In this document: piece after piece, positions 18,478-64,000 of the stretch
How the letters are laid out: each line of letters opens with the position of its first letter
Position numbering within the stretch: position 1 is the first letter of the stretch
NCBI GenBank assembly: GCA_964016885.1
Contig: OZ024741.1
Coordinates: 208,196,001-208,260,000, forward strand
DNA: 64,000 nucleotides
Reading direction: 5' to 3'
DNA from: Eledone cirrhosa
Lineage: Eukaryota
The notes under the pieces: model-generated
Seen by the model: the letters and a program-made list of their open reading frames with translations, nothing else
The model's database searches: none
Told to the model about the DNA's origin: nothing
Made by a program: the position numbers and the translations under genes

Positions 18478-18532
<55 letters not shown>

Positions 18533-18593: not shown

Positions 18594-18630
<37 letters not shown>

Positions 18631-19139: not shown

Positions 19140-19230
19140 ATAACCTTCGTTTTGTGTAGAAAATTACACTTTTCATATATATATATATATATACATATAT
19201 ATATACATATATATATAATATACATATTAA

Positions 19231-19323
<93 letters not shown>

Positions 19324-24649: not shown

Positions 24650-24654
24650 GGATA

Positions 24655-32150: not shown

Positions 32151-33432
32151 ATAACATACAGCTATATATACATACATACAAGTTCGTGTGTGTTCACACA
32201 TGAACCTCAAAGTCGCACCTTAAATGTTTAAAACAATAAATTTTGTATGGAAACTTTTACATCTGTAGTTGTTTGTCAGCATGCGTGTTTGTGTGTGCGT
32301 CTCTCTCTCTCTCTCTCTCTCTCGTGTGTACATGCCTTTCTTTCTTTTCTTTCTATCTATATATGTGAAATACAACAATAAAATGTGTGTGAAACGCTGG
32401 AGATTTCGGTAAAATTGCCAGTCATTGTTGTTAGAATCGTTTATAAATCGGTAAAACGAAGACGAATCAGAAAGGGTCATTGAACTTAATCTGTCCAAGA
32501 CATAAGTGTTGTTGTTCCTTCTTTCTTTTATTTCTATGTTGTTTTGTTTTTTTCTCAAGTTAGAAGACATACACAGGACCGCCATTGACAACCGTATCTT
32601 GTGCTGTCTAACGAATGCTGTTAATGGGAAGGATAAGTGAAGTTGTCTTGTGATTCCCCCTTCTTTTCTACGATTATGGGGCTTTTAGTAATGTTTTAGA
32701 GCTAAATGGATCGTTTGATAAAAATAAATGGGGTGAGACAGAGAGAGTGGGGTTATCAAATGGAAACAATCGAGTTTTTCCAGAAGATTCTAGGAGCAGT
32801 TGTTGTTGATGTTATTGTTTATATTTTAATGTTCAGAACTCAACTCTTTGTTTATTCATTGTATGAACTCTGTACTTAGATGAGAGATATAAGCAAACAC
32901 ACACATACACTCACACACTCACACACACAAGTACAAAAACAATCACACACACTCACATGCACACACACACATACACACACACACACATAAACACACAAAC
33001 ACACACGCATATATATATATATGGGCGTGGGTGAGTGAGCGTGTGTGTTTAGGGTTAACTCTTTGATCAAAAGTACGATTATCATGATTACCGCTATTTT
33101 TTTCTTTCATTAAAATATAGTTCTTATGCCTAAACATATATATACAAATATTTGACCACAGACGCCATGGTTTAGCCGAGTTTTTGTGCAGTAAATTTTT
33201 TATTGATATGTTAATTGCTTATTCAATCAATTCTATTCTGATGTTCATTAGGCATAAAGACCTCTATAGAAGTTTTGTTAAACTCAATATTAAACATGTT
33301 TACATCTTTTTTATGTTTTTCTGTGTTGTTGTTGTTGTTGGCGTTATTTTCTCCTCCTCTTCCTCGCCCTCCGCCTCCTCCTCATCATCATCGTCGTCGT
33401 CATCATCATCATCATCATTATTATTATTATTA

Positions 33433-34050
33433 TTGGTGGATTGGCAGTATCGGTAGAGGGTCGGACGCCATGCTTTCCAGCATAGTTACGTCCCTTTACG
33501 ATCTGAGTTCAAATCCCACCTAGGTTGACTTTGCCTTTCATCCTTACGCGGTCGATAAAATAAAGTACCAGTAATGCACTGAGTTTTTGCTGGCATTGAG
33601 TCTAAAGTAGAAAAAATTATTATTATTTAAAGTACCAGTAATGTACTGGATAATTGCTGGCCTTGTGCCAAAAGTAGAAACAATTATTATTATTATTATT
33701 GTTCTTTGTAATGGCGGTGGATTGGCAGTATCGGTAGAGAGTCGGACGCCATGCTTTCCAGCATAGTTACGTCCCCTTACGATCTGAGTTCAAATCCCGC
33801 CGAGGTTGACTTTGCCTTTCATCCTTACGGGGTCGATAAAATAAAGTACCAGTAATGCACTGGGTAATTGCTGGCCTTGTGCCTAAAGTAGAAACAATTA
33901 TTATTATTGTTCTTTGAGTCTCAGTCATTGATGTTATTCAAATCCCGCCGAGGTTGACTTTGCCTTTCATCCTTACGGGGTCAATAAACTTAAGTACCAG
34001 TAATGCACTGGGTAATTGCTGTACTTGTGACTAAAGTAGAAACAGTTATT
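33433..34050 (+). mobile_element. Stack of four SINE copies/fragments (33433-33616, ~33627-33683, 33712-33897, 33939-34044) with (ATT)n tails
   Basis: The unit attggcagtatcggtagag.gtcggacgcc...gcctttcatccttacg.ggtcgataaa...aaagtagaaa.aattatt is repeated. Confidence 0.9.
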
Positions 34051-37000
34051 TAATTGGAAAGTTTATTGAAATGAATATCAAGCCGCTACCTGCAGCCTCA
34101 GACATTCAGAACGTATCGGAGGGTTCTTGCTGTTCCCAGCAAGCATGCCTTTTGAGGTGTTCTAAACAGCGGGGCTGGACTAATCTTCTTTAACCATCCT
34201 TGGAAACTCTGTGAGATAGTACGTAATGCTCCTATGACAATCGAGACGACTCTGACTTCATGGCAGTTCCAAATCCTTTTTAACTCCCACTTTAAGTCCT
34301 GATATCGGTTAATTTTCTCCCTCTCCATCTCTTGCACTCTCGTGTCAAATGGGCAGGATACATCTACAATCAGGCACGATCTTTTTTCCTTGTATAAAAC
34401 CACCAGGTCAGGCCTATTGTGTTCTAACTTCTTGTCCATCTGTATCCTAAAATCCCATAGCACCTTCACCTGATCGTTGTCTATCACCGACTCTGGCTTA
34501 TGCTCATACCACTTCTCAGAATGTGGTAAATTGTTTAATTTGCATAGATGCCAGTAGATCACCTTGCCTATCAGATCATGTCTCCAACCTTTATAGTGAG
34601 TCTGGGCTAGGTGTTTACACTCGGATACAATGTGAGCCACAATCTCCTCTCTCTCCCAACAGATCCTACACAGTGAGCTAGCCTCCTCCTTGTCAATATG
34701 GTGTTTCACCCACCTCCTTCTGAGGGCTTGCTCTTGCGCAGCCATTAACATTCCTTCTGTAGCTTTTTTAAGGTCTCCTCTTTTTAACTAGTTCCATGGC
34801 TTTGGATCTCTAAATTCCGTTTTTCTAATGAAGGTGCTATGAAGGGATTTTCATGAAGGTTGCTCTTTCTCCTTGCGGTTATTTCCTCCCTGGACATCCC
34901 TTGGTCTATTGTCCTCTCCTTCAGTACAATTCTGAGCATTGGCTCCCTACTATCAGTCACGTATTTGTGTAGGTTTTTTTTCTCCATCTGAACACCGTCC
35001 TCTATGCTGATAAGACCTCTTGCACATTCAGATCTCTTTAAGTAGAGTCTATCGACATCACTCCTCTTGTGGAACATGTTGTAGATAGTCATTAGCTTCC
35101 TAGTCTTCCTATCTATTTCTTTTTGTTCAGCAACATTCCATTTCAGAATTCCCGCACTGTACCTCATAATAGACACAGCTCGGGAATTTACTGCACTTAT
35201 GACATTCCTACTATTTAGATGTGATTTTAATACGTTCCTTACTCTCCTTATTTATTCAGATCTCATCATTTCCTTCAGTTTTTTTGTTCTTGATGTCATC
35301 AGCCTCCAGAACACCTAAATATTTGTATCCCTCTTCAGTGTCAATTTCGTTTATCATCTCCCCTGTTGGTACCTGGATTCCGTTGCTTCTATTCAATTTA
35401 CCCCTCTTCATCACTAAGACTCCACACTTATTATTATATATATCATTGCTGAAAATACGGACAGTGTCAACAACTACATCCAACTCCTTCTCACTCTTCC
35501 CAAAGAGTTTAAGATCGTCCATGAAGAGGAGGTGGTTTGATGGTAAGCTCTACTCTTCCCAACTTTTATCCTGCTCTCACTTTTCGCAATATAACGGACA
35601 GGGGTATCAGGGCAAGGACAAACAGGAGAGGGAACAAACTATCTCCCTGGAAGATACTCTCTTGATCTTCATGCCTCCCAAGGATTCTCCACCTGATGTT
35701 AACTCTGTTTCCTAGGACTTCATACTTTTGCTCAACAACTGTTTGATGTTATCTGCCACTTTGAAGATCTCTAGGCTTTTGGTTATCCAAGAATCAGGTA
35801 CCATGTCGAATGCCTTTTTGTAGTCTCTCCATCCCATGGCAACACCTGTGTGCCTCCTCTTGCAATTCCTCACTACCATCTTATCAATAAGTAACTGATC
35901 TTTTGTACCACGGGACTTCTTTCGGCATCCTTTCTGTTCGTCCGGTAACAAGTTGTTTGTGTGGAGGTGATGGTAGATTTCCTCAGACACAATGCTTGTC
36001 AACAGTTTTCACATTACGGACAGACATGTGATATGTCTATAGTTGGTAACATCATTACCCTTGATTCGGTCTTTCATTACCAGAACTGTGGTACCTTTTG
36101 TCAACCACTCTGGTACTTCACCCGACATCAGGCAGTCATTGAACATGGTTGTCAGTTTCAGGTGGAGGGATGTTATATGTTTAATACAATACCCCTGCAC
36201 ACCATCTGGGCCTGGTGATTTCCAGTTGGTTTGTTTTTTGGCCTGCCCTTTAAGCGTTTCAACTGTGATACTCAAATCAGGTTGTTGGTGTGCTTGTTCA
36301 CTAATCTCCTTTTGAACTGTCTCAATCCACACTGCCTGACTATTATGTTCAACATCCTGCTCCCATCTTCCTCTCCAGAATGTCTTAGTCTGTTCCACCT
36401 CAGGGATCACGTCGTTGCCTCTTTCTTTCCTTTCAAGCTGTCCAAACAACATCTTCTGGCTGTTGTCAAACATGCGGTTATGTCTATACTGACTAACTCT
36501 TTTCTCATACCGCCTAATCTTTGCACTTTTTGCCACAATGCGTTGCTTCAGTTCCTCTAGTTTTGTATTTTATTTTCAATCTATCTTTAGTATCTATGTT
36601 TTGTAATGTCCCATTCAGTAAGACTCAAGCTTTCCAATGTCTTTTCTCATTTCCTTGATTTGACCATTCAGTCGTTTCTTCCACCAAGGTACTGATCTTT
36701 CTTGTTTGTTGTTTCCTCTCATTCTTATGCCAAGTAATTTACTCACCGCATTTGCGGTTGCTTTGAGGATATTATTGCATTGGTGAAGGTTCCTCGCCTT
36801 AAGGTATGGGATGACTTTGTTTACCTTAGCTGTTGTTTCTTTTAACTTTTTCCTGTCTACAAGTTTTAGGTTCACAGATTTTCCGCTATCATTGTTCATT
36901 TCATCTACCACTAAGTTCAGGATATCAACCAAATCTTGCCCTAGCCCGTCAGCATTCATTTTTTCAATGGCCATATCTTTGTTCCAGATGTTATATATTT

Positions 37001-37550
37001 CAGCATTCAGATCATTGTCGGCTTCGGATGCTTCCTCAAGTCTTCACCTTCATTTCCCCCTGACTCGTTAGCCTGATATACTCCACTCTCCATTTCCGAC
37101 TTAATCTCTCTGCTCAGTTTCTCCAGTTCCAACTCGCTTATCCATCCATTAGTTCTTATTACCCGAGCCTGTCCGGCCAATTTTTGTTCATCTAATTTAA
37201 ATAGACCAATCTCGTTCCAGATGTTATGCATCCGTTTCCTATAGCCTTTTTCCTTGGGGTTACTCTTCAGGTTACATTCCATGACAGTTCTATTCAATTC
37301 TTTCGTCCAGTTGGTTCTTGTCCCATTCCTTCTTCTCCCTCCAGCACCAACAGTATTTGGATGACAGCCAGGTCCCTGCTGCTGGGCCAGGGAGCACTTG
37401 CTGGGTGAGAGTCTTTCACATGACGTTCCAGTCTCCTTTTCACCGTTATTCGAACTGTTTAGGTTCGACATTTAAACACTCATATCGAGGATTGGTGAAT
37501 GTATGGTTACATAACCACCGATTTTAGCGTGGCACCATCACGTTATAGAC
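33909..37550 (-). mobile_element. Near full-length R4/Dong-like retrotransposon, family A, frameshifted (ORF from 37471 to 34098)
   Basis: Collinear pieces [57 protein letters not shown]...H....C and NRPDLVV...VDVSCPFD. 3' UTR followed by a sense (AAT)n tail. Confidence 0.9.
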
Positions 37551-37835
37551 GAAAATAAATAAATAAATAAATAATAAAAACATAAAAATATATACATAAG
37601 TTTCATTGTAATGTTTAAATATTTTTTTTCCCTTTTGTTTTTCAAAGCCAGTAACATCGGTTCCTAGTGTTGTTGTTGCTGCTGCTGTTTTTGATTTTAG
37701 CTACGCTAAGCTCGTACTCATAGCAACGAGGGAGGTAGGGGGTGTTGCGTTCAAAACTTTTGAAATTTGTTTTTCTTTTGATGTTGCGTTTGTTTTTGTC
37801 TGTGTTCTGTTCTGTAATTTTTCGACTTGTTGCTT

Positions 37836-38022
37836 ATTGGCAGTATTGGTAGAGAGTCAGATGCCATGCTTTGACGCATAGAGTTATGGCCATTGCCATT
37901 CGGAGTTCAAATCCAGCCGAGGTTAACTTTGCCTTTCATCCTTACGGGGTCGATAAAATAAAGTACCAGTAATACACTGGGATAATTGCTGGCCTTGTGT
38001 CAAAAGTAGAAACAATTATTAT
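37836..38022 (+). mobile_element. SINE copy
   Basis: attggcagtattggtagagagtcag...gcctttcatccttacggggtcgataaa...ccttgtgtcaaaagtagaaacaattattatt. Confidence 0.9.
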
Positions 38023-38029
38023 TTGACAT

Positions 38030-38550
38030 CGTTTAAACTAAACATTTTGAGAGAGTTTAGAGATACAACGACAATAATTATTATTATGGTGTTGTTGTTG
38101 GCTATGTTTGACCGGGTCACTAAATCAGTCTATTTATATCTTTTGGTAGCTATCTCCTTTCTAGGCACTACTACTACCTTCCCCCTCCAGGAGGTAGTGA
38201 GGGAATAGTGGTGGTAGCGATAATGGAGTGGTGACGGTGGTGATGAGGTAGTAGTACTGTAGTGATTGTGTTGTTGCTGCTGTTTGTTTGTCTCTAGCTA
38301 AATTTTGTGGTAGTGGTGGTGGCGGTGTTGGAGGTGAAATTATTTGGCTGTTGTTTTCTTCCATTTGTCACCATTTGTAACCATTTTTTTTTTGGACTAT
38401 AAAATTTCTGATACAAAATTAAATATTTGAGCCATATGCCAGAGTCTTATGTGGTGTCATTTCTTGAGAGCGAAGACTGATGGCTTATATACCATTTGTA
38501 ATAAGAATTATTCTATCACAATTGTTTTAGATGTGTAAAATATCAAAAAT
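38030..38550. repeat. Diverged duplicated block, homologous to ~63080-63760
   Basis: Shared ggtcactaa.tca.tctatttatat, gggaatagtggtggtagc, tacaaaatt.aatatttgagc and catttgta.taagaatt...cacaattg. Confidence 0.75.
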
Positions 38551-38590
38551 TATTATTATTATTATTATCATCATTATTATTATTATTATT

Positions 38591-39281
38591 GTTCTTTGAG
38601 TCTCAGTCATTGATGTTATTTAACTGGAAAGTTTGTTGAAATGAATATCAAGCCGCTACCTGCAGCCTCAGATATTCAGGACGTATCGGAGGGTTCTTGC
38701 TGTTCCAGCAAGCATGCCTTTTGAAGTGTTCCAAAAAATGGTGCTGGACTAATCTGCTTTAACTATCCTTGGAAACTCTTTGAGATAGTACCTAGTGCGC
38801 CTATGACAATCGGGACGACCTTGATCTCATGGCAGTTCCAAATCATTTTTAACTCCCACTTTAAGTCCTGGTATCGGTTAATTTTCTCCCTCTCCTTTTC
38901 TTGCACTCTCGTGTCAAATGGGCAGGCTACATCTACAATCAGGCGCGATCTTTTTTTCCTTTTACAAAACCACCAGGTCAGGCCTATTGTGTTCTAATTT
39001 CTTGTCCGTCTGTATCCTAAAATCCCATAGCACCTTCACCTGATCATTTTCTATCACCGACTCTGGCTTATGCTTATACCACTTCTCAGAATGTGGTAAA
39101 TTGTTTACTTTGCATAGATGCCAGTAGATCGCCCTGCCAATCACATCATGTCTCCAGCCTTTATAGTGCGTCTGGGCTAAGTGTTTACACTCAGATACAA
39201 TGTGAGCCACAGTCTCCTCTCTCCATAGATCCTACACAGTGAGCTAGCCTCCTCATTGTAAATATGGTGTTTCACCCACTT
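38591..39281 (-). mobile_element. 5'-truncated R4/Dong-like copy, family A (CCHC + RLE + 3' UTR)
   Basis: AHIVSECKHLAQTHYKGWRHD...NRPDLVV. Bounded by (ATT)n on both sides. Confidence 0.9.
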
Positions 39282-39323
39282 TATTATTATTATTATTAGG
39301 TTTATTATTATTATTATTATTAT

Positions 39324-40448
39324 TTGCATTTATCTTGCTTTATGTTTATACGAGTTATCACCAAGTCACAACCAGTGACCTCAAGAGACAACAAGGTCCG
39401 CCATGTTCAAGAAAGAACACACATATTCACACATGCATCCTTAGTGTTTAGACTTGTGATGTACTTATATTGACAGGATCTTCCTTAGTATATGGGCAGT
39501 TCCCATTAGTACTATCTTTTGTATTTCTCCTATACGCGGGTTTCCTGGGATTTGCGATAAGTAGTCGTTAGACCCCTTAGGTATCATTCCCAGAGTGCCT
39601 ACAACCACTGGTATTGTTTTAGTTCTCAATTTCCACATTTTTCCAATTTCTATCTCCAGGTCCTTATATTTGCTCAATTTTTCAAATGTTTTTATAGATA
39701 CATTCTTGTCTATTGGAACAGACATATCAATTAGCAGGCATACCCTCCTTTGAAAGTCCTTCAATATTATATCAGGTCTATTTGCATCTATTTTTCGGTC
39801 TGTTTGGATGCTAAAGTTCCACAAGATTGAGATGTGATCTTTTTCAAGTATGGGAGGTGGTTGATGCTCCCACCAATTCTTTTGATGGGGCAGGTCAAAA
39901 TGCTTACACATTATCCAATGTATGTATTGTGCAGCTCTGTCATGCCTGTTTAGGTATTCGGTTGGAGCTATAGGACTGCACATTGAAATTATATGGTCAA
40001 TGGTCTCTGGTTGTTTTTTGCATACACGGCATAATGGGCTGCACCCATTTTTTATTATGTTGGCTTGGTAATTTTTTGTTGGCAGACACTGATCTTGTGC
40101 GGATATAATCAGTCTTTCAGTCTCCGATTTCAGTCCAGAGGATGCCAACCACTGATGGGTTAAAGTTTTGTCAACATCAGGATTGTTAGCTCGCTCTGGG
40201 TATTTTCCATACAGAGGCTTTTCTTGCCATTTCTTAGCCAGTTTCTGTAGCAGTTCTTTCTTTGCAGTTACTTTTACCTGCTTTGCTTTTTCTGTGTTTT
40301 CCATTTCAGCAGTAAATGGGACTTCTGAAATTTGTAGTCCATTACTGTATCTTTGTGCATCTTTTGTAATGGAATATGATCTTTTGGTGCTTTCGTGTTT
40401 CAAAACGAGTTTGATCATCCAATCATGTGATTCCCTTAGATATGTGGA

Positions 40449-40450
<2 letters not shown>
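39324..40450 (-). mobile_element. 5'-truncated R4/Dong-like copy, family B
   Basis: SAQDQCLPT, CRVC...ETIDHIISMC and NRPDIILKD...LIDMSVP. Same 3' UTR as 58905-59048. (ATT)n on both sides. Confidence 0.9.
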
Positions 40451-40494
<44 letters not shown>

Positions 40495-40500
40495 GTTGTT

Positions 40501-42355: not shown

Positions 42356-42356
<1 letters not shown>
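40501..42356 (-). mobile_element. 5'-truncated young R4/Dong-like copy (subfamily A'), uninterrupted ORF 42332-40581
   Basis: WIDYRKAFD, GIFQGDSLSPLLF, LFMDDLKLF, CCHC and RPD..D motifs. Near-identical to 50152-52010. Confidence 0.95.
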
Positions 42357-42386
<30 letters not shown>

Positions 42387-42387
42387 G

Positions 42388-44197: not shown

Positions 44198-44427
44198 TTA
44201 TTATTATTATTATTGAATGCCATGTTGACGGAGGCTCGGCTCTGTAAGGTATGGTAAATTTTGACCGCTATAACAATTGTAAATTGATTAATACTTTAAC
44301 CAAATTGTAGACAAAAGCACCCTCCTCCTCGTGAGAGGGGTCTTTCTGCCCGTTATCTGGCCCTTCGGGGTTGAATAGTCGCTTATTGGGGTTTTGTGCC
44401 CAATATTTATTTTAAACAAAAAAAAAC

Positions 44428-52912: not shown

Positions 52913-55900
52913 ATACCAGCAAAAAAGAGCCCATGCTTCAACATGGACCTCTCAATGAAAAGTTGGCCCAGGCCTGGAAGCTCATCAAGCAAGAGCAAAC
53001 CTGGGCCAACTTAACTGTCCCGGTAGAAGCTATTGAGGCAGTGGAGCGCAGAACGGTGCATTATAGATGCATCTCAGCACAAACCAAAAGGGCAGCTTTA
53101 ATCCCACAAGAAGATATCGAAGTCGCGTGGAGGTGCATCAGAGAAGACACTGAATACTTAGAGAGGGGCAGACAGTACGGCACCATTTCGGTGTTGTTCA
53201 AGTCAGAAGCCCTCGCTATGAAACACGCTATGACTACTTGCAAAACCAGCAAGGTCATAATGTACCCCTCCCACATGGGAAAAAGAACGGCCCGGCTCCG
53301 CATTCCCAGAATCCCACCAGAACTTGACATGTGGTGGCTTCTGGGATGTGTGATTGTGGAGGAGGCGAATACCGTCCCTATAGGAGTGACCAGAATGGCC
53401 AGAGAGGACTGGTCCGGGGTTGACCTGGAGATCCTTCTCCAGATCATCCGGAGAATGTGAAGACAATCCCGGACCACATCCGCCTTCAGAATGGGACGGT
53501 CATTCACATTATGACCGAAGGCAAAAGGCCGCAGTGTTTTGTTTGTGGGGAAAAAACCCATTTGCGAGCCTTCTGCCCTCAACTGCTGAAAGAGGCAAGG
53601 GGTCGAAAGGCTCCACTGCTGCCGACGCCGGGGCGAGGACCACAACCAGCACCAGCACCGGCAAAACCATCAACAACAACACCAATAGAAATACCACCAC
53701 CAACATTGACCACCCAGGGGGGAAACGAGGAAAGCTGTCAAATTACCCCTCCCCTCCAAAATACACACATCAATAAAATCATAAACATACATACAGACAC
53801 ACTTACAGACACAGACCGCTCATCTGCCAGTAGTGGAGATGAGGGAAAACCAAAATACAAAAAAGGAAACACAAAAAGAAAAAAAAACTCAACAAAGCAC
53901 AAAATCACCCACAATAAAAAACGCAGACACCACCCACGCAAACATCTCTCCAATAACACCAACATCAACACGGCCATCACCATCACCAGAATCCCCCAAA
54001 CGCAAACGCAAACAACCTAAACCGACGCAAGAACAAATATAGACACAAACATCTGAAACCACAGACACTGCACTCAGAACAAACACAGACACAACCGAAA
54101 CAACACCACCAAAACCATCACCACCACAGCCACGCAAACAGATAAAATCACACCAACAAAACATACAAAACTTCGTGCTCGTCAGGAGGGCCAACAAGGA
54201 ACTGATGTTCCTCGTAGCACGAAGTGAAAATATACAAAAAGAGGGGGTAATTTTTAAATCGAGCACATTTCGCGTGCCGGAAGATTTGGTTCTGGTGCGA
54301 ATGTCGATCGATTTATACAAAAAAAATACGAGACAGCTTTCCTCAGGACGTGGGAGCCCCGAACGTAAAACCCACTTCAAGGCTTTTAAAGTGGTTCCCA
54401 AAAGAAACCCCACCAACTATGTAGTCCGAACAACCCGACCTTCACAAGAGCCCGGAAGGTAAGTAAACCTTTCCTTTCTCTCTTTTTAACCTGCCAACAT
54501 GGCCGTATTAAGAGTAGGATGTTTAAATGTTCGAGGCCTGGGATCGTCCTGGAAGCAGGGTCACCTGCTCAATGACTTCAGGTCTCTAGAAATGGATGTA
54601 ATTGCCGTCAGCGAGACCAGGATTTCCGACACGCGCGCACTAGCCCCCATTTTCGACGACTATCAAATCTTTGCATCTGTTAGCCGGCCGGGAATGGGAG
54701 GCGGGTGGCAATGCTGTTTAGGAAAGGCCAGGATCTCGAGGTACGGTCGATCTTCCGGGACGGGAGGTTGGTGGTCCTGGACGTGAACAATAACGAAGGT
54801 GGTGCCTTTAGACTGGTGGCCGTCTATTCTCCTACTGGGGCAGGACGGCCGGACTTCTTTAGACGCCTGGAAGCCTTTCTGGGCACGTCTCACCCTTTAC
54901 TGTTAGCGGGGGACTGGAACGGAATCTTAGACGCACGCTGGGACTGTGTGGGAGTATCCGATAGGAGCGGGGGGTGCAAAAGCCTCAAGAACCTGATCAG
55001 CCAGTTCCAACTGTCTGACAGGTACCGACTAGATTTCCCTAATGCGCCAGTGTGGACCTGGGCTAACCGCATAGGGTCATCTAGATCGTATATAGACAGG
55101 ATATTCATTAGGAAAAAAGACAGAAATAGTGTAAGCTGTCCACGTTTTGAAACGGTCGCCTATTCAGATCACAAGTTTGTGATCTGTATGGTCGATCTAG
55201 ATAAGACGCGTAGGTTAGGACCTGGTTACTGGAAGCTAAACATGTCATTTCCGGCACGTAAGGCTTACAGGGACCAGGTCAACAATTTAGTTAAGAAAAG
55301 GTTGACAGGAGGAGTTGTCAACAATAGATGGTGGGGGTCTCTCAAAAGAGAGATTAGAGTAATGTCGATAAAGTTTAGCAAAGAAGTAGCGTTAGAGAAA
55401 AATAGAAAGGAGGGGGAGTTGGTAGACAAGTTAGACGAGGCTATTGGTAGTGGCATTGCAACTAACGTGCTAGCGGCGAGAATGGCATTAGACCATTTCT
55501 TCAATGCGAAACACGAAGGTTGCATTGTCAGAGCTAAGGCGCGTGCTCTGAGAAACGAGGGAACCAAAGCTGTTCGATGGGCCCGCGTGGCAGAGGCGCA
55601 GCATGGTAATAAAACCACGATTCGGTCTTTGACAGACCGAGACGGACACGAGCTGAGCGATTCCAAGAGGATGTGTAAGGCCTTTCGCCAACATTTTGCT
55701 CGGTTGTTCGGGGGAAGTGGCGGGTCAGAGATGATGGCGGACTTCAGTCCCTACTTCGATGGCTTGCCGCAACTCTCGACGGCTGACGCTGGGCGCTGCG
55801 AAAGGCCAATTATTTCAGCCGAGATTCAGGATGCCCTTGTCGGCTGTATGAGGCGCAAGTCACCCGGTTTGGATGGTCTGCCCTACGAGCTTTACGTAAA

Positions 55901-58129
55901 TATGCCAGACTTGTTCTCCAATCTCCTCGAAGCCCTCTACTGCAACTGGCAGCAAAATGGGAGTATTCCCAGTTCTGTGAGTCGGGGCGTAGTAACGCTG
56001 ATAAGGAAAGACGAGAACAAGAGGGACACATTAGACAATTTCAGGCCCATAACTCTGCTCACTCAACACAGAGTTTAAGATTTTGGCCAGGGTGTTGGCG
56101 AAGAGGTTGGCGCTTGCCGTCGGGGATTTGGTTGGGGAGGCGCAAACTTGCGCAATCCCAACCAGGTCCATACACGACAACCTCCACCTAATGCGATACA
56201 TCATAGAGAGGGTAGGGTGTAAACCTGGCTTCGGTGGGGCTCTGATCAATTTAGATCAATCGAAAGCATTCGATAGGGTCGACCATCGGTACCTGGAAGC
56301 TGTCCTCAAGGCGGCTCGCTTCGGCCCCGTCTTCAGAAGCTGGATCGCTGCAATGCACAGCGGCACCTGCTCGATGGTCAAAATTAATGGCCACCTCTCG
56401 GAACCGTTTCAGGTCTCCCGATCGGTCCGTCAAGGGTGCCCTCTCTCCTCCCTTCTGTACGTATTGACTCTCGAGCCTTTACTGCGGAAGCTGGAGCTGT
56501 TGCAGGGCATCCCGCTCGAACCGGGACGCGGAAAGGCTGTGTCGGCTTATGCGGACGACATCACCGTGATGGTGTCGGACACCTCAGAAATCGAGGTGGT
56601 CGGCAACTTATTGGAGGAATATGAAAGGTTGACAGGAGCAAAACTTAACCCGGAAAAGTCGGTGGGCTTGCAACTCGGCACCTGGAGAGGCAAGGCCATG
56701 CCGTCCAACAGCGTCATTAGGCGCTGGACCGACGGACCGGTAAAGTTGCTTGGGGTTTGGTTCGGGCCAGACCTCCAGGTGGATAAGAATTGGGACGAGG
56801 TGTCGGGCAGGGTAGCCAGTCTCACCCAGAAATGGGCTGGGATGAACCTATCACTGAAAGGTCGGGCGGAGGTGGCGAACGCGTACATCGCGTCCGTCAT
56901 CTACTACCGTGTGACCGTCGTCCCTTGCCCCGTTCGCGCCTCGCCATCTTGGAGAGGCTCCTCTTCAAATTCTTGTGGAGAGGTCAGGTTCCGCTGGTGA
57001 GGCAGTCCACCTGCTGCCAGCATCCTCTACGTGGAGGGCTGGGCATGCCGTGGCATCTCCAGATATTCTGCCTAAACGGTGAACAGATGTGGTCGCCGTT
57101 TGTCAGACGGGCCTTTCCGCAGCTCGTTTCTTTGACTGAGCTGCAGTCCTATGTCAAGAAGAGACCGAGACTGGGTGACTGGCATCTGGAATGTTGCCAA
57201 GCACTCACTGCCCTCTACCAGGCGGGCAATGCGGTCAGTGGAACTTCCACTCTCGAGTTCTATAGAGGATTAGTGGTGGGCAAGTGCGACGGTCACTCGA
57301 AGAGGCTCTGGGAGTCAACGAGGTCGAACTAACCAGTCTGTACTGGAGGACTTTCGAGCCGAGGACGATGGATAATTTCCAAAAATCCCTCGCTTGGCAG
57401 TGCTACCGGGGGGCACTGCCGGTTCGATATAAACTCTAGAGGCACGGAAGTGCTGTCAGACGGACCTGCCCGAGATGCGCGTAGAGCAACGAAACCGTTC
57501 TGCACGCACTCGTCCAGTGTCCGTGCATTACTGACTTGTGGGGTTATGTTGAACAGCTGTTGTCGCGTGTAGAACGGATCCGGATATCGGCCGAGTCCAT
57601 AGTGAAGATCGACCCGCCGCCTTCTTTTGGCCAGGAAGGGCAGGCAATTTTCCTCTGTCTGGTGGCAGTAGCGAAAGAGGTTGTATGGTGGACGAGGTTG
57701 AAAGGACTGAAGACAATCACTTTTCCCTTCGGCCACTCCCTCAGCAACTTTTTCAAGTTTCACTTGGAAAGGAAGATGAGGGTGGAGAGAGAAGTGCTGT
57801 CCTCCAGTACATTTGCTGAAAGGTGGGTGAATGTGGCGAGAATGGCCCGTGTGAGTGGGCCTACTCTGGTCATGCGGCTGTAGGTAGGTAAATTTGAGGA
57901 GGAGAGGGGTGCCATTCCAGGGTGCTCTCGAAGCGTCGGGTCGTTCAGGATTGGTGGGGTACCTGAGTGAACCCTGGGTGCCCCCCTATTGGGGAATTTT
58001 TTTCTTGTAATTTTATTGTTACTTTGTTATTGGTTCATATTGTTTACTCGATTTTTCTGTAAAACCCCACTGTCTCAGTCTTTTGTATTGTCACCTATAT
58101 GTCGGTCCTTGTGGCCAATAAATGAAATC
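52913..58129 (+). mobile_element. 5'-truncated Tx1/L1-clade LINE, second family (T2): ORF1 remnant to ~54462, ORF2 54499-57883 frameshifted
   Basis: EGKRPQCFVCGEKTHLRAFC; MAVLRVGCLNVRGL, GDWN, KSPGLDGLPYE, LDQSKAFDRVDH and AYADD. Ends ccttgtggccaataaatgaaatc. Confidence 0.9.
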
Positions 58130-58532
58130 ACTCTTCGGTGATGCCCTGATTAACTTTTTCAAATTTCATTTTAAAAGGAAAATCAGGGTAGAGAGGGAAG
58201 TGCTCTCTTCCCAGCATTTTGTTGAAAGATAGGTGAGAGAAGCAAGTATGGCCCGTGTGAATGGGCCTACTCTGAGTATCTGTCTGTAAATTAAAGGTGG
58301 AAAACTGGGAGAGGGCACTTGCCCTGGTGATCGGGGTCACTGTAGCCTTTTAATGGGCTTTCTCCACAAATGTCCCTCGGAAGTCTCCCCCCTATTGGGG
58401 AATTTTTTTGTTATTTTTATTATTACATCCTCTGTTTTTTACACGCTGAAATGCCCATTTGTACCGCCCTGTATTGTCCTGTACTGTCCTTAATGTCTAC
58501 TTTATGTAAACCCTTGTGGTTAATAAAGAAAG

Positions 58533-58572
<40 letters not shown>

Positions 58573-58876
58573 GAGAAGCAAGAATGGCCCAAGTGAATGG
58601 GCCTTCTCTGAGTACGTATCTGTAAATTAAAGATGGAAAACTGGGAGAGGGCACTTGCCCTGGTGATCAGGGTCACTGTGGCCTTTTAATGGGCTTTCTC
58701 CACAAATGTCCCTCCGAAGTCTCCCCTCTATTGGGGAATTTTTCATTGTTATTTTTTTGTTACATCCTCTGTTTTTGTTTTTTACGCGCAGAAATGCCCA
58801 TTTGTACCGTCCTGCATTGTCCTGCACTGTCCTTAATGTCTACTTTATGTAAACCCTTGTGGTTAATAAAGAAATC
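58130..58876 (+). mobile_element. Two tandem 3' fragments of Tx1 family T1 (58130-58533 and 58572-58876), each ending in (ATT)n
   Basis: They match 49729-50133 and ~49835-50133. Confidence 0.9.
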
Positions 58877-58904
58877 ATTATTATTATTATTATTATTATT
58901 ATTA

Positions 58905-61900
58905 CAGCTGCATTTATCTTGCTTTATGTTCATACGAGTTATCACCAAGTCACAACCAGTGACCTCAAGAGACAACAAGGTCCGCCATGATCAAGAAAGA
59001 ACATACATACTCACACATGCATCTTTAGGTGTTTAGAATGTGATGTACTCATATTGACAGAATCTTCCTTAGTATATGGGCAGTTCCCATTAGTACTATC
59101 TTTTGTATTTCTCCTATACGCGGGTTTCCTGGGATTTGCGATAAGTAAACATTAGACCCCCTAGGTATCATTCCTAGAGCGCCTACAACCACTGGTATTG
59201 TTTTAGTTCTCAATTGCCCCATTTTTCTAATTTCTATCTCCAGGTCCTTATACTTGCTCAATTTTTCAAATGTTTTTATAGATACATTCTTGTCTATTGG
59301 AACGGACATATCAATTAGCAGGCATACCCTCTTTTTAAAGTCCTTCAATATTATATCAGGTCTATTTGCATCTATTTTTCGGTCTGTTTGGATGCTAAAG
59401 TTCCACAAGATTGAGATGTGATCTTTTTCAAGTATGGGAGGTGGTTGATGCTCCCACCAATTCTTTTGATGGGGCAGGTCAAAATGCTTACACATTATCC
59501 AATGTATGTATTGTGAAGCTCTGTCATGTCTGTTTAGGTATTCGGTTGGAGCTATAGGACTGCACATTGAAATTATATAGTCAATGGTCTCTGGTTGTTT
59601 TTTACATACACGGCATAATGGGCTGCATCCATTTTTTATTATGTTGGCTTGGTAACTTTTTGTGGTAACTGATCTTGTGCTGATATAATCAGTCCTTCAG
59701 TCTCCGATTTCAGTCCAGAGGATGCCAACCACTGATGGGTTAAAGTTTTGTCAACATCAGGATTGTTAGCTCGTTCTGGGTATTTTCCATACAGAGGCTA
59801 TTCTTGCTATTTCTTAGCCAGTTTCTGTAGCAGTTCTTTCTTTGCAGTTACTTTTACCTGCTTTGCTTTTTCTGTGTTTTCCATTTCAGCAGTAAGTGGG
59901 ACTTCTGAAATTTGTAGTCCATTACTGTATCTTTGTGCATCTTTTGTAATGGAATATGATCTTTTGATGCTTTCGTGTTTCAAAACGTGTTTGATCATCC
60001 AATCATGTGATTCCCTTAGATATGTAGATAATCCAATTGTTGCAGTTTTCAACGCAATGTCTAACTGGATTAACCCACGTCCTCCTTCTTTCCTAGGGAG
60101 TTATATTCTATCTGTATCTGCCTTAGGGTGATGCATTCTGTAGATGGTTAAGAATTTTCGAATTTTTGTATCGAGCCTACGGATCTCTGTGCTTGACTGT
60201 AGGTTACTACTGGTATGGCAAGCGTGTTTATGGCATCGATCCTATTCCTTGCATTCAATTCCGTTCTTAAGATTGCTCTTACTCTGCGGTAACATTCCTT
60301 CCTTATCCTTTCCCTCATTGTCGAGTGCTTGATTCCGTCTCCTTCACAAACACCTAGATATTTGTAAGTTTCCTCTTGATCAAGTTCTCTTATCACATTC
60401 CCCCGATCAAGATTAATGTCTGAACTTTTCAGTAGCTTTCCTCTGGTGAACGTTGCTTTGGCGCATTTATCTAGTCCAAACACCATTTTAATGTCATCAC
60501 TGAACTGCTCCACATGGATAATAGCCCTTGCAATTGTTCATCATTTTTTGCAAATAGTTTCAGGTCATACATGTACAACAAGTGATTAATGGTTTTGTCA
60601 TAGACTTTATATCCATGTTTTGTTTCATTGAGCATTTTACTTAATGGTATATGTGCGATGCAGAATAAAAGCGGTGATAAAGAGTCACCCTGAAAAATTC
60701 CACAATTAATATTAACTTCTCCAGCTTCCAGTGATTTTGTTTCACTATTCAAAAGGAGTGTCGTTTTCCATGTCTTCTTACTGAATGACAAAAACCTCCT
60801 GACAACGGGGGATATTTTGAAAATCTCTAAACATTTTTCAATCCAACTGTGTGGCAAACTATCGAATGCTTTTTTATAATCTATCCAAGAAATCGATAGA
60901 TTTTTGTGTCTATTATGACAATCTTCCAGTATCATTTTGTTAACCAGAAGCTGATCCTTACAGCCATATGAGCCTCGTTTACACCCTTTCTTCTCAATGG
61001 GAAATAGGTCATTTGTTATCAGGTGGTCATATGTGTATTCAGGTAGGACTGATGTTAAAATTTTATACATTGTGGTCAAGCAAGTTATCGGTCTGTAATT
61101 TTTGGGATTGTTTGTCTCATCATTCTTCCGAAGCAGGAATGTAATGCCGTTAACTAGCCATGATGGTATCTTTTCTGGCTCCTTAACTATTTCATTGGGC
61201 CAACAGCTCATGAGACTCTGTGAAGGCATTTATCCAAAAGTTTTGTATTTTGTCTTTTCCTGGGGATTTCCATTTGCTGGTTTTACTTAGAGCCAAGCGC
61301 AACTGTTCAAATGTTATATTTTCCCATATTTGTTCCTCAAGGTGAGCTGTATCTTTCATTTGTCTGTCTATCCATGGGGCATGTATGTTATGAACTTTTT
61401 CTTCGGCCCAGATCTTTTCCCAGAATTCTTGCACTTCCTCCTTGGGTGGTATTGATTTAGCAGTTATTGTTGACTTACCAATTTTTCTGTAGAAGTTTCT
61501 TTGGTTGTTTTTGAACATATTATTGTCTTTATAGAATCTAGATCGTTTTTCAAAGCGCCTTATACGAGCAGCTTTGGCCGACACTTTTTGCTTGATTATT
61601 TCTATCAGCATGTCTATGTCACTTGTTGATTTTATACTGTACTTTTTTTTCAATTTTCTAAGTTTAGTTTGTTTAACATGTTCACCTACTTTATAGTTTG
61701 TTAAAATGTCTATGTCAGATCGGAGAAGGTTTATTTGGCGATTGATATTCTCTTGCCAAGTAGATTTCTTGTGGGAATTCCTTTGTTTTTCATCTTCACT
61801 CCACATAAGTGAGTGGTGACTTTAGCCGATGCATAATAAAGATGATTTAAATCAGTAATGTTTAGTTTGTTTGTGATGATAATGTTTTTGAGAATTATGT

Positions 61901-62830
61901 TAGTCTTGTGTATTATCTTTTGGTTCTGTTTGGAGTTCTGGATCTTAGGGAGGGTGTCTCGTTACCCCATGTCAGATTCTTTCATTTTCATCCATTCGAT
62001 CATAATTTCATCCTTCAAGTTGGCAAGTTCATTCTCATTCATTTCTTTATCATTTACGATCTCATTATTTTCATTTGGAGTTTCATCTTGAGCATGCATT
62101 ACCTCCACTTTTTCGATCCTTTCTTTAATTTGTTGTTGCCAGTGATTCCGCCCCAACCCTGGGATTCGAAGTGTTACAATTTACCTCGTTTTCACTGACA
62201 CATGTTTCATTTTCCCTTCGCTGACTTTGTGCTAATAGCTTGATCTGATCAATTTCTATATCAGTTAGTAACTTTTTTCTTACAATATTTCTTCGTATAT
62301 TGGCTAGTTTGTTACTGTCAATATAGCCTCTGTTTTCGGGATGTTTCTTTTTCCAGTTGATATATGTCTGTTCTGTATTCGATGTATTTGATGGGTAGTA
62401 CATGGCAGTGTAGAAAGCCTCAAGGACTTCTTTATTATCTTCCCTTGACCATTTTCTCTCTTTTTCTTTGGATTTCTTGGTGGTGAGCATGGGGGGCCAA
62501 CAGTAGGAGTATTCCGGTTATGGGAGGTCTCCAGCTCCGAAGTGATGAGAAGGTTTGAACCATTAGCTGATTTTTCGGCCCCAGTCTGGTTCCTCTCTGA
62601 GGGACGCGGCCCTTTTTTACCCGGGTGACGGCCGATCCGGTATGAGATTTTATCATTAGACATTTACTTTATTTTGTCGCGTTTTATCCTTATCCGCCAA
62701 GGGGTAATCATTTCGTGTTACCACTTCTAGAACGAGTGTCAACCAAGACTAGAGGGGTCGTTCTCCCCTAGAGACACGGCTATTCCCCGCCGGCCGCCAT
62801 CCCGGTATTTCTTGGTCACGGGGTTTTCTT
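58905..62830 (-). mobile_element. Full-length R4/Dong-like retrotransposon, family B, frameshifted (ORF from 62663 to 59049)
   Basis: GRHPG, WSREDNKEVL, WKSPGKDKIQNFW, KGCKRGSYGCKDQLL, GIFQGDSLSPLLF, YMYDLKL and NRPDII. Structured 5' UTR. Confidence 0.9.
62714..62817 (-). ncRNA. Candidate HDV-like pseudoknot at the retrotransposon 5' end (non-canonical core)
   Basis: P1 GACCAAG/CTTGGTT opens with G.U; P2 CGTGT/ACACG; P4 CACT/AGTG. All are in HDV order, but the catalytic C is not seen. Confidence 0.4.
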
Positions 62831-62904
62831 TTTGTTGGTTTTTTAAATTGTTATTATAATGACTGGTTCCTTAATGTGAGCATTGCGTGGCTTAAGAATG
62901 AAAT

Positions 62905-62960
62905 TATTAATAATTGTCTCCACTCCAGGCACAAGGCCAGCAATCACCCAGTGCATTACA
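62905..62960 (-). mobile_element. SINE 3' fragment
   Basis: Minus: gtaatgcactgggtgattgctggccttgtgcctggagtggagacaattatt. Confidence 0.7.
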
Positions 62961-63807
62961 ATAATATAATATACTTTTTGCTGAAGTTGCCTGTTATTGT
63001 TGTTGGCTATGTCGGTGGTGGTGCTGGGGCATTTTATATTGTTGGTGAGGAAGGGGTGAGCCAGCAGTGCCATAGTTGTTGATGTTGACGTTTGGCCGGT
63101 GGCCAGGTCACTAAGTCAATCTATTTATATATTTTGCTAGCCTCTCCCTTGTCTAGTGATACCGCCACCTCCCCTTTCTCTCTCAAGTTAACAGGGGAAT
63201 AGTGGTGGTAGCACTGAAGGAGTGGTAGCGGCGGTGATGGGATAGTGGTAGCAAAGATGGATGGAGTGGTGGCGGCGGTGGCGTTGTCGTTACTGAGTTT
63301 TGTGATATGTAGTATCTATGAGTTTGTGTCGCGTTGTTTAATATATATTGTGTTGACATATTCCCGTAAAATTGGAATTAAACATTTTGTTAAAACTTGA
63401 GACAATAATAATAGTAATTATTATTATGATGCTGGGATTGGTGGTGGTGGTGGTGAAATTGCCGTTTTCTGGCTGTTATATTTAGTGTGATGGGGTAGGT
63501 GGTGTATCAAGTTGCTGGTGTTGGTGAAATTGCTGTTATTTGGCTGTTCTATATAGTGTAGACAGAGGGTGTTTTCTTCCATTTATAACCATTTTCTTTT
63601 TTGAATACAAAATATATAATACAAAATTGAATATTTGAGCGATATAACAATATAATATGGATCCGAAATTTTATGGGACTTGATTCGGTGGTTTATGCAA
63701 CATTTGTACTAAGAATTGTTATTTCACAATTGATTTAAATATGTTAAAAATCAAAAACTTACGGGAGCGATTTCATGACCTTCTACCACCACGTGCCTCT
63801 TCTTCCC

Positions 63808-63839
<32 letters not shown>

Positions 63840-64000
63840 GAATGCTATGGTTGACGGAGGCTCGGCTCTGTAAGGTATTGTAAATTTTGAATGCTATAAC
63901 AATTGTAAATTGTTTAAAACTTTAACGAACTTGTAGATAAAAACACCCTCCTCCCCGTGAGAGGGGTCTTTCTGCCCGTTATTTGGCACTTCGTGGTTAA
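63840..64000 (+). mobile_element. 5' end of another Tx1 family T1 element after (ATT)n; runs off the window
   Basis: Aligns with 44215-44375 from the first base (gaatgc...ttgacggaggctcggctctgtaagg). Confidence 0.9.

What the first reader, a model, noticed from the sequence alone, without database searches (positions are those of the whole stretch)
33420..64000. 30-kb multi-family retrotransposon stack built on (ATT)n with a strict orientation rule
Seen: 7 R4/Dong-like copies (families A/A' and B) are all on minus with sense (AAT)n tails. 5 Tx1-like copies or fragments and 5 SINE copies are all on plus, mostly with sense (ATT)n tails; the one exception is a minus SINE tail fragment at 62905. 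Nearly every junction is an (ATT)n tract, and the LINE ORFs are not interrupted by one another. Known: Dong (R4 clade) targets TAA repeats, and some Tx1-clade families target other microsatellites such as (TC)n and (TTC)n. Inference: RLE and APE endonuclease lineages converge on one trinucleotide target from opposite strands. Each insertion regenerates target, giving a self-extending landing pad. An (ATT)n-specific Tx1 family may be undescribed.
Basis: partly seen in the sequence, partly recalled or inferred. Interest (0 to 1): 0.75.

Follow-up and report, generated by a model that had tools for sequence, protein, structure and literature searches.

The report
Two retrotransposon classes stacked in one ATT repeat
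One ATT microsatellite in what is probably an octopus-like genome has grown into a 36-kb pile of jumping genes, because two unrelated retrotransposon classes and a SINE land in ATT repeats genome-wide, likely by cutting opposite DNA strands; this is a tidy but fairly ordinary case of site-specific insertion.

Summary
Window 33417-64000 holds 7 copies of two restriction-like-endonuclease (RLE) LINE families (A, B), all on minus. It also holds 5 copies or fragments of two APE-type LINE families (T1, T2) and 5 SINE copies, all on plus. They are separated by 15 (ATT)n tracts and no (AAT)n tract. The stack runs past the window to about 69719, 36.3 kb in all.

Genome-wide sampling shows that this is targeting and not only 3' tails:
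- T1 5' ends follow (ATT)>=4 in 26 of 30 loci.
- T2 5' ends follow (ATT)n in 21 of 23 loci.
- B 5' ends follow (AAT)n in 29 of 30 loci.
- A tails are (AAT)n in 28 of 30 loci.
- Neighbouring elements keep the orientation rule in 211 of 216 cases around four LINE seed sets. It is weaker around A 3' seeds (36 of 48) and dispersed SINE seeds (19 of 32).

The two "unknown" plus-strand pieces are the 5'UTRs of A and B. A carries an internal (AAT)k that is a SINE hot spot. Young SINE copies use short ATTAT(T) sites with target-site duplications, so the APE side likely has a hexamer nick preference.

(TAA)n targeting by Dong is known. An (ATT)n-preferring L1/Tx1-group family was not found in the papers searched. 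Clade placement by phylogeny could not be tested. Verdict: real, a new member of a known kind, moderate interest.

The parts
33382..33418 (.). (TCA)n run forming the left edge of the stack
33417..33434 (+). (ATT)6, first tract
33435..33615 (+). SINE copy followed by an (ATT)4 tail
33628..33682 (+). SINE 3' fragment followed by (ATT)6
33716..33896 (+). SINE copy with a 20-nt target-site duplication (33689-33708 and 33897-33916). The duplication spans the (ATT)n / A 3'-end boundary, so this SINE inserted after A.
33909..38548 (-). Family A RLE LINE, near full length. 3' tip 33909-33936; body 34045-37835; 5'UTR 38031-38548, about 50 nt short of the family's 5' end. It carries two nested plus-strand SINEs: 33937-34044, and 37836-38014 with its short ATT tail to 38023. 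The ORF is broken into several frames.
38549..38590 (+). (ATT)6 ATCATC (ATT)6 tract
38591..39281 (-). Family A 3' fragment, 5'-truncated
39283..39324 (+). (ATT)5 AGGTTT (ATT)7 tract
39325..40449 (-). Family B 3' fragment, 96% identical to the B copy at 58904
40450..40494 (+). (ATT)15 tract
40495..42356 (-). Family A 3' part, 98.7% identical to 50131-52007
42357..42386 (+). (ATT)10 tract
42387..44196 (-). Family A 3' part, 5'-truncated
44197..44214 (+). (ATT)6 tract directly 5' of T1
44215..50133 (+). Family T1 APE-type LINE, full length at 5.9 kb. ORF1 is an open frame of 488 aa at 44416-45879 with a CCHC knuckle. ORF2 (APE, RT) is broken into several frames.
50134..50151 (+). (ATT)6 tract shared by the T1 tail and the A tail
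50152..52912 (-). Family A, 5'-truncated. It has an 892-aa open frame (RT, CCHC, RLE motifs) at 50235-52910.
52917..58130 (+). Family T2 APE-type LINE, 5'-truncated, 72% identical to T1. It joins the A 5' break through 4 unassigned bases and no ATT tract.
58131..58533 (+). T1 3' fragment placed directly behind the T2 3' end
58534..58569 (+). (ATT)12 tract
58572..58876 (+). T1 3' fragment
58877..58903 (+). (ATT)9 tract shared by the T1 fragment tail and the B tail
58904..63809 (-). Family B RLE LINE, full length. Body 58904-62900; 5'UTR 62901-63809, which holds the minus-strand SINE-tail-like piece at 62915-62959. The ORF is broken into several frames.
63810..63839 (+). (ATT)10 tract between the B 5' end and the T1 5' end
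63840..64000 (+). 5' start of a further T1 copy. It runs on beyond the window to about 69659 and ends in (ATT)20.

Best explanation
A single (ATT)n microsatellite has been invaded again and again by two kinds of target-primed retrotransposons that likely nick opposite strands of the same repeat, and this gives a 36-kb stack in which every element keeps a fixed polarity.

Shown:
- Families A and B have RT, a CCHC motif and a PD-(D/E)xK-type nuclease motif, have no APE, and have (AAT)n sense tails. They lie with (AAT)n on both sides here and across the genome.
- Families T1 and T2 have an APE endonuclease, RT, a C-terminal CCHC motif and (ATT)n sense tails. They lie with (ATT)n on both sides.
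- The SINE shares that polarity.
- Young SINE copies carry target-site duplications that begin ATTAT.

Inferred:
- The RLE elements nick the ATT strand and prime on its 3' end with an (AAU)n RNA tail.
- The APE elements nick the complementary strand after AATAAT and prime with an (AUU)n tail. This works much as L1 uses TTTT/AA sites and poly(A). Long tracts are favoured because they are arrays of nick sites and give a longer primer-tail pairing.
- Each insertion splits one tract into two and adds a templated tail. SINE and T tails seed new tracts at short ATTATT sites, so the target supply grows.
- The SINE is likely mobilised by T1/T2-type proteins.
For: Lineages. For A, the best solved relatives are R2 proteins at E 3.5e-29, against L1 ORF2p at 1e-12. 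The CCHC, RHD and PD..D..K motifs can be read in the translation. A 1158-aa homolog shows RT, zf-RVT and a weak PD-(D/E)xK-fold hit, HSDR_N_2 at E 0.0036. For T1, L1 ORF2p scores 1.7e-34 against R2 at 2e-14. APE and RT were found by Pfam, and 1150-aa homologs carry APE + RT + zf-RVT.

Flanks genome-wide:
- T1 full-length 5' ends: (ATT)n lies directly upstream in 30 of 30 loci by eye. By a strict count, >=4 perfect units lie within 3 nt in 26 of 30, with a median of 11 units.
- T2 5' ends: 21 of 23 by eye and 16 of 20 by the strict count.
- T1 3' ends: (ATT)>=2 in 28 of 30.
- B 5' ends: (AAT)>=2 in 29 of 30, 7 of these with an (AAG)n run in between.
- A 3' tails: (AAT)>=3 in 28 of 30.
- 5'-truncated A copies: long (AAT)n on the 5' side in about 8 of 12.
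- 5'-truncated T1 copies: (ATT)>=3 on the 5' side in 3 of 7, and 2 more with duplications that start ATT.

SINE. Exact duplications of 10-22 nt occur in 15 of 30 loci, all starting ATTA. The first six bases after the SINE end are ATTATT in 18, ATTAAT in 4, ATTATA in 4, GTTATT in 2 and something else in 2.

Orientation concordance of neighbours within 1.5 kb of LINE seeds: 40 of 40, 117 of 119, 25 of 27 and 29 of 30, which sums to 211 of 216.

Shared tracts. At least 10 of 30 T1 tails run straight into an A, B, SINE or T1 end. 12 of 30 A tails end at an antisense SINE or T tail.

SINE partner. The SINE, T1 and T2 3' ends share an invariant CCTTGTG block followed by an A-rich end.
Against: - No nicking, priming or transposition was observed. 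The strand assignment is inference from tail polarity.
- Around dispersed SINE seeds only 19 of 32 neighbours are concordant, and around A 3' seeds 36 of 48.
- Only 3 of 30 young SINE copies lie in (ATT)>=3, and 2 of 7 truncated T1 copies have no ATT at the 5' side. The APE side is therefore a preference and not an absolute requirement.
- One T1 tail is (TTC)n.
- About 11 of 30 family A 5'UTR starts lack (AAT)n directly upstream.
- Some sampled loci are local duplicates and so not independent: four T1 loci on one contig share a flank, and there are pairs among the A and B loci.
- Only the best 40 of 347-1943 candidates were scored in each search, so the samples are not random.
- None of 16 full-length T1 copies fetched has an intact ORF2.
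- The window's A, B and T1 full-length copies have broken ORFs.
Confidence: 0.85

Rival explanations
1. Tails only. The elements would insert anywhere and merely bring their own (ATT)n or (AAT)n 3' tails, and the cluster would be a passive transposon graveyard.
For: Some copies lack a repeat on the 5' side: 2 of 7 truncated T1 copies, 2 of 12 truncated A copies, and most young SINE copies.
Against: 5' flanks are repeat tracts in 26-30 of 30 (T1), 21 of 23 (T2) and 29 of 30 (B) loci. Outside the stack a tract occurs only about once per 11 kb. Within the stack no LINE body is interrupted by another LINE.
Confidence: 0.03
2. Assembly artefact. The array would be a mis-join or a collapse/expansion of dispersed repeat copies.
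For: The region is almost entirely high-copy repeats. Public runs gave only short contigs that stop at repeat borders, so continuity could not be checked.
Against: - The window has no N.
- Every copy has its own truncation point and its own divergence, 72-98.7% between copies.
- A 20-nt target-site duplication spans one junction.
- The same kinds of junction recur at many other loci.
Confidence: 0.05
3. The T1/T2 proteins would recognise the long microsatellite as such, through dedicated repeat recognition as proposed for Kibi and Koshi, and not merely a hexamer nick site. The SINE would then be moved by a different, less specific LINE.
For: Full-length T1 and T2 copies are almost always in tracts of many units, with a median of 11, whereas the young SINE copies mostly are not. 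SINE and T 3' ends share only a short motif.
Against: Truncated T1 copies show duplications that run from ATT repeats into unique DNA, for example a 13-nt one, and one copy sits at a non-microsatellite ATT-like site. The SINE has the same polarity, the same ATTAT start of the duplication and the same stack membership.
Confidence: 0.25
4. Hybrid twin priming. At one double-strand break in the tract, the two exposed 3' ends would prime an RLE-element RNA and an APE-element RNA at once, giving head-to-head junctions with no repeat between them.
For: The junction at 52912/52917 joins a 5'-truncated A to a 5'-truncated T2 through only 4 unassigned bases.
Against: The many apparent A|SINE head-to-head junctions turned out to be SINE insertions into an internal (AAT)k of family A, with the A 5'UTR lying beyond them. 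True head-to-head 5' ends keep a tract between them: B|(ATT)10|T1 in the window, and further cases. Only one zero-spacer case was seen, and a later deletion explains it equally well.
Confidence: 0.07

Closest known systems
Dong (Bombyx mori) and Dong-like R4-clade elements (DongAg, DongBg of the snail Biomphalaria)
   Same: Families A and B share the RT plus C-terminal CCHC and restriction-like endonuclease, the lack of an APE domain, and insertion into (TAA)n/(AAT)n with a sense (AAT)n tail. Intact homologs are about 1130-1160 aa, which suggests one long ORF, but the window's own A and B reading frames are broken. (TAA)n is reported as the Dong target in insects, molluscs and cnidarians (passages of PMC7998251 and PMC3812793). 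Dong-R4 is the class with the most recently active LINE insertions annotated in Octopus vulgaris (PMC13282606, Table 1 passage).
   Different: Clade placement was not tested by phylogeny. The N-terminal Myb/SANT-like domain reported for R4/Dong was not detected by Pfam here. A and B have a long 5'UTR of about 0.9 kb, and family A's holds an internal (AAT)k that is itself a hot spot for SINE insertion.
Kibi, Koshi and crocodilian microsatellite-specific Tx1 families
   Same: APE-type LINEs of the L1/Tx1 group that insert preferentially into one microsatellite in a fixed orientation: (TC)n, (TTC)n and (TTCC)n/(TTTC)n (PMC4494074, passages and section 15; PMC3812793, passages).
   Different: The repeat unit here is ATT, which is not in the lists I read. 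The host is a mollusc-like genome and not a vertebrate. Short ATTAT(T) sites with duplications are also used. Membership of the Tx1 branch, as against L1 proper, is untested.
Human L1/Alu: TTTT/AA nick preference and insertion into poly(A) tails
   Same: The logic is likely the same: a nick-site preference that matches the element's own 3' tail, target-site duplications that begin with the tail motif, a SINE riding on the LINE, and tails of earlier copies serving as new targets. The L1 details are recalled knowledge.
   Different: The motif is a strand-asymmetric trinucleotide repeat and not a homopolymer, and it is shared with an RLE lineage of opposite polarity.
LINEs and SINEs with (ATT)n or (TAA)n 3' repeats in other clades (Chlamydomonas RandI/SINEX, Drosophila I element)
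   Same: 3' tails made of ATT or TAA units (PMC3747384, passages and table 2-3 text).
   Different: These belong to other LINE clades. No shared-target stacking with an RLE lineage is described in the passages I read.

Membership tests
R4/Dong clade (families A, B) | RT followed by a CCHC motif and a PD-(D/E)xK restriction-like endonuclease, with no APE domain | tested here: met
   The motifs CRIC..H..C, RHD and PD..D..K can be read. Pfam finds RVT_1 and zf-RVT and no Exo_endo_phos. There is a weak HSDR_N_2 hit at E 0.0036 in a full-length homolog. R2 proteins are the best solved relatives.
R4/Dong clade (families A, B) | Dong-type target: insertion into (TAA)n with the repeat on both flanks | tested here: met
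   B 5' flank: 29 of 30 loci. A 3' tail: 28 of 30. Truncated A 5' side: about 8 of 12.
R4/Dong clade (families A, B) | RT phylogeny groups with R4, Dong and Rex6 and not with R2, NeSL, CRE or HERO | not testable with these tools
   No named reference sequences could be obtained. The homolog lists carry no names. HERO also has microsatellite-specific families (PMC4640811 passage), so this remains open.
R4/Dong clade (families A, B) | Divergent N-terminal Myb/SANT-like domain (reported in PMC7998251) | tested here: inconclusive
   Pfam hmmscan at E<=1 found nothing in the N-terminal ~480 aa of three full-length homologs. The paper needed profile-profile search to see it.
Tx1 clade of the L1 group (families T1, T2) | APE endonuclease, RT and a C-terminal CCHC motif in ORF2, and a separate ORF1 | tested here: met
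   Pfam finds Exo_endo_phos and RVT_1. The CPRC..H..C motif is in the translation. Homologs carry APE + RT + zf-RVT. ORF1 has a CCHC knuckle. L1 ORF2p is the best solved relative and is colinear.
Tx1 clade of the L1 group (families T1, T2) | Target-specific insertion: the same sequence type in more than 20% of flanks (the criterion of PMC4494074) | tested here: met
   T1 5' flank: 26-30 of 30. T2: 21 of 23. T1 3' flank: 28 of 30.
Tx1 clade of the L1 group (families T1, T2) | RT or EN phylogeny groups with Tx1L, Keno, Kibi and Koshi and not with L1 proper | not testable with these tools
   No reference sequences were on hand. The best named homologs are only 'hypothetical protein' of Argonauta hians. 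The Atlas gave no clade names.
tRNA-derived SINE | Head recognisable as a tRNA | tested here: not met
   Rfam at E<=0.1 and ARAGORN found nothing in the SINE copies. The head type stays unknown.

The most novel reading that the evidence does not exclude
T1 and T2 are a so far undescribed (ATT)n-preferring branch of the L1/Tx1 group. Its endonuclease cuts after AATAAT. Together with its SINE it seeds the very (ATT)n tracts that Dong-like RLE elements then colonise from the other strand. This makes a self-feeding two-lineage system that builds most long ATT microsatellites and tens-of-kb landing pads in this genome. Family A even carries an internal copy of the shared target in its 5'UTR.
Probability: 0.35. 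Interest if true: 0.55.

Novelty: new member of a known kind. Interest (0 to 1): 0.4.

Why it matters
It gives a clean natural example of two unrelated endonuclease lineages (RLE and APE) sharing one strand-asymmetric microsatellite with opposite polarity. It also shows how tails and split tracts can turn one repeat into a growing landing pad.

It offers testable substrates for endonuclease specificity: (ATT)n duplex, with different strand and position predictions for the two enzymes.

It bears on genome annotation too. Many long ATT tracts in this genome flank retrotransposon ends, and repeat libraries may split A and B from their 5'UTRs because the internal (AAT)k is usually filled with SINEs.

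It does not change current understanding of site-specific LINEs.

Tried and rejected
1. Twin priming by two RNAs as the cause of the recurrent A|SINE head-to-head junctions. Rejected after one search showed the A 5'UTR beyond the SINEs, with truncated UTR pieces keeping the body-proximal end.
2. Reading 38031-38548 and 62901-63809 as independent plus-strand elements. Rejected.
3. Assembly check with public runs. Only short Logan contigs were available, so no piece spans a junction usefully. No RNA holder was listed.
4. Names for clade assignment. The homolog searches, cluster look-up and Atlas gave no clade names.
5. Rfam found no ribozyme or tRNA. Its one hit, a bacterial sRNA model at 23 bits against a gathering score of 95, is noise. 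ARAGORN found nothing.
6. A genome search with the last 179 nt of family A returned nothing, not even itself, probably because its words are too common. I repeated the search with a stretch further inside the element.
7. The supplement of PMC4494074, which holds the Tx1 target figures, could not be read. It may list further repeat units.
8. Paper searches for an ATT/TAA-specific Tx1 found none. Kojima and Fujiwara 2004 itself was not readable here and is cited only through other papers.
9. Earlier-scan look-ups by place and by sequence were empty.

Full report
**What is there**

The window has 16 perfect (ATT)>=4 tracts and 2 (AAT)>=4 tracts. Fifteen of the ATT tracts lie in 33417-63839, and no AAT tract does (TRF agrees). 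Self-BLAST and BLAST against the longest copies resolve the DNA between the tracts into five repeat families.

On the minus strand lie seven copies of families A and B.
- Their frames carry RVT_1 and a zf-RVT-like CCHC motif and no APE domain.
- The translations show CRICGEREETVAHIVSEC, then RHD, then NRPDLVVVD...D...K. These are the motifs of a restriction-like endonuclease.

On the plus strand lie five copies or fragments of families T1 and T2.
- They carry Exo_endo_phos followed by RVT_1.
- T1 and T2 are 72% identical over 3.4 kb.

Also on the plus strand are five copies of a roughly 180-nt SINE.

Read directly, every A/B copy appears on the + strand as (ATT)n followed by its 3' end, which is a sense (AAT)n tail. 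T1 and T2 end ...AATAAAGAAATC(ATT)n. Two full-length T1 5' ends, at 44215 and 63840, abut (ATT)n.

**Corrections to the map**

Two plus-strand 'unknown' pieces, 38031-38548 and 62901-63809, are 73% alike. They are the 5'UTRs of A and B on the minus strand.
- In 30 genomic loci seeded with the 5' end of the A body, the body is joined through an internal (AAT)0-4 + GAT to this piece.
- Short versions of the piece always keep the body-proximal end, as 5' truncation of a single element predicts.
- The real 5' terminus is (AAT)n|AAGGGAAGAA(G/T)ACGCAC.

The internal (AAT)k is filled with one to five SINEs, or with T1 fragments of the opposite polarity, in most of these 30 loci. That explains the SINE at 37836-38014.

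A second SINE (33937-34044) sits in the 3' tip of A at a GTTATT site. The SINE at 33716-33896 has a 20-nt target-site duplication that spans the (ATT)n / A 3'-end boundary, so it arrived after A.

The stack continues beyond the window. The T1 copy that starts at 63840 ends near 69659, followed by (ATT)20 and then unrelated DNA. The left edge is a (TCA)n run. The total is about 36.3 kb.

**Is it targeting or only tails?**

The window's genome is held: about 3.0 Gb in 1796 contigs. I sampled 30 loci per query. These are the best-scoring of 347 to 1943 first-look candidates, so they are not random samples.

| Query | Result |
|---|---|
| T1 full-length 5' ends | (ATT)n directly upstream in 30 of 30 by eye |
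| T1 5' ends, strict count | >=4 perfect units within 3 nt in 26 of 30; >=2 units in 28 of 30; median 11 units |
| T2 5' ends | 21 of 23 by eye; 16 of 20 strict |
| T1 3' ends | (ATT)>=2 in 28 of 30; one copy has a (TTC)n tail |
| B 5' ends | (AAT)>=2 in 29 of 30, 7 with an (AAG)n run between |
| A 5'UTR starts | about 19 of 30 with (AAT)n |
| A 3' tails | (AAT)>=3 in 28 of 30 |
| 5'-truncated A copies | long (AAT)n on the 5' side in about 8 of 12 |

- Four of the T1 loci are copies of one local duplication.
- Of 7 short T1 copies, 3 have (ATT)>=3 on the 5' side, 2 have duplications that begin with ATT and run into unique DNA, and 2 have none.

Since tracts occur about once per 11 kb outside the stack, these frequencies are far above chance.

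**The APE side is a nick-site preference**

The 30 best SINE matches are 98-100% identical to the window copy and are dispersed.
- Fifteen of the 30 have exact target-site duplications of 10-22 nt, all beginning ATTA.
- The six bases after the SINE end are ATTATT in 18, ATTAAT in 4, ATTATA in 4, GTTATT in 2 and something else in 2.
- Only 3 of the 30 lie in (ATT)>=3.

I infer that the priming nick falls on the complementary strand just after AATAAT, and that an (AUU)n RNA tail anneals there. This is the L1 TTTT/AA and poly(A) logic with another motif. A long tract is then an array of nick sites.

The SINE, T1 and T2 3' ends share an invariant CCTTGTG block and an A-rich end. This is modest support for T1/T2-type proteins moving the SINE.

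**Orientation**

I annotated all neighbours of at least 60 bp within 1.5 kb of each seed. The window's own locus was dropped from each set, and pieces contiguous with the seed were also dropped.

| Seed set | Neighbours with the polarity the shared tract predicts |
|---|---|
| T1 5' | 40 of 40 |
| A body 5' | 117 of 119 |
| T1 3' | 25 of 27 |
| T2 5' | 29 of 30 |
| A 3' | 36 of 48 |
| Dispersed SINE | 19 of 32 |

The rule is thus general near LINE ends. It is simply the consequence of two fixed polarities on an asymmetric repeat.

Stacking is also common:
- At least 10 of 30 T1 tails run directly into an A, B, SINE or T1 end.
- 12 of 30 A tails end at an antisense SINE or T tail.

**Lineages**

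For A, the best solved relatives are R2 proteins (E 3.5e-29), ahead of L1 ORF2p (1e-12). For T1 the order is reversed: L1 ORF2p at 1.7e-34, colinear, against R2 at 2e-14.
- A has many homologs of 1130-1160 aa on contigs of about 3.6-4 kb.
- T1's best named homologs are hypothetical proteins of Argonauta hians at 69% identity, so the host is probably an octopod cephalopod.
- No tool gave named R4, Dong, Tx1 or L1 reference sequences, so clade membership by phylogeny is untested.
- The Myb-like N-terminal domain reported for R4/Dong was not seen by Pfam.

**State of the copies**

No autonomous copy in the window is intact.
- A at 50235-52910 keeps an 892-aa open frame but is 5'-truncated.
- The full-length A, B and T1 copies have their long ORFs split into several frames.
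- None of 16 full-length T1 copies fetched has an intact ORF2.
- B 5' ends elsewhere are 98-99% identical to the window copy, which suggests recent activity.

**Literature** (only passages found with the find function, unless stated otherwise)
- (TAA)n is the Dong target in insects, molluscs and cnidarians (PMC7998251).
- A 2013 review lists Waldo (ACAY), Mino (AC), Kibi (TC), Koshi (TTC) and Dong (TAA) as the microsatellite-specific LINEs (PMC3812793).
- Crocodilian Tx1 families prefer (TTCC)n/(TTTC)n (PMC4494074; section 15 read whole; its supplement was not readable).
- Some HERO and NeSL-related families also target microsatellites (PMC4640811).
- Dong-R4 (5 families, 1129 recent insertions) and L1-Tx1 (13 families, 421) are annotated in Octopus vulgaris. 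The passages I read there give no target analysis (PMC13282606).
- R4-Dong was found almost only in cephalopods among the molluscs surveyed (PMC10294476).
- (ATT)n tails occur in algal RandI/SINEX and TAA tails in the I element (PMC3747384).
- Searches for an ATT/TAA-specific Tx1 found none. Repbase could not be searched.
A similar pile-up has therefore been seen by this scan before, on other DNA.

**Left unexplained**

At 52912/52917 a 5'-truncated A meets a 5'-truncated T2 with only four unassigned bases and no repeat between them. A later deletion or a double-priming event would both fit, and there is only this one case.

**Verdict**

The elements are best filed as Dong-like RLE LINEs plus a new ATT-preferring member of the microsatellite-targeting L1/Tx1-group LINEs with a SINE partner. 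The interest is moderate.

Noticed in passing
window 37823-38030 and loci L047-L076: Family A carries an internal (AAT)0-4+GAT between its 5'UTR and body. In most of 30 sampled copies this short site holds 1-5 nested SINEs or T1 fragments. Automated repeat libraries would probably split the element there.
   Followed up: yes
loci L201, L205, L213, L220, L224, L228 (family B 5' junctions): An (AAG)n run lies between the upstream (AAT)n and the B 5' end AAGGGAAGAAG in 7 of 30 loci by the strict count. It may be slippage on the element's own first bases.
   Followed up: partly
window 52913-52916: Four unassigned bases join a 5'-truncated A (minus) to a 5'-truncated T2 (plus), with no ATT tract between them.
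   Followed up: partly
window 4128-4984: A small stack of the opposite polarity: SINE on minus, (AAT)6 at 4287-4304, then a T1/T2-like fragment on minus. It obeys the same orientation rule.
   Followed up: partly
window 20-2718: A 2.7-kb GT-rich minisatellite with periods of 27 and 57, about 75% matches.
   Followed up: no
window 24306-24899: Six copies of a 56-bp unit at 99% identity, directly followed by about 81 units of (AGA)n.
   Followed up: no
window 14884-16176 and 18058-19289: A 1.3-kb inverted repeat at 88% identity, rich in AT/ATAC microsatellites.
   Followed up: no
window 43500-59500, runs X4, X5, X7: Contigs of public runs labelled as other organisms match families A, T1 and T2 at >=97% identity. 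These families may therefore be shared among closely related species.
   Followed up: no
locus L084: One T1 copy ends in (TTC)n instead of (ATT)n.
   Followed up: no
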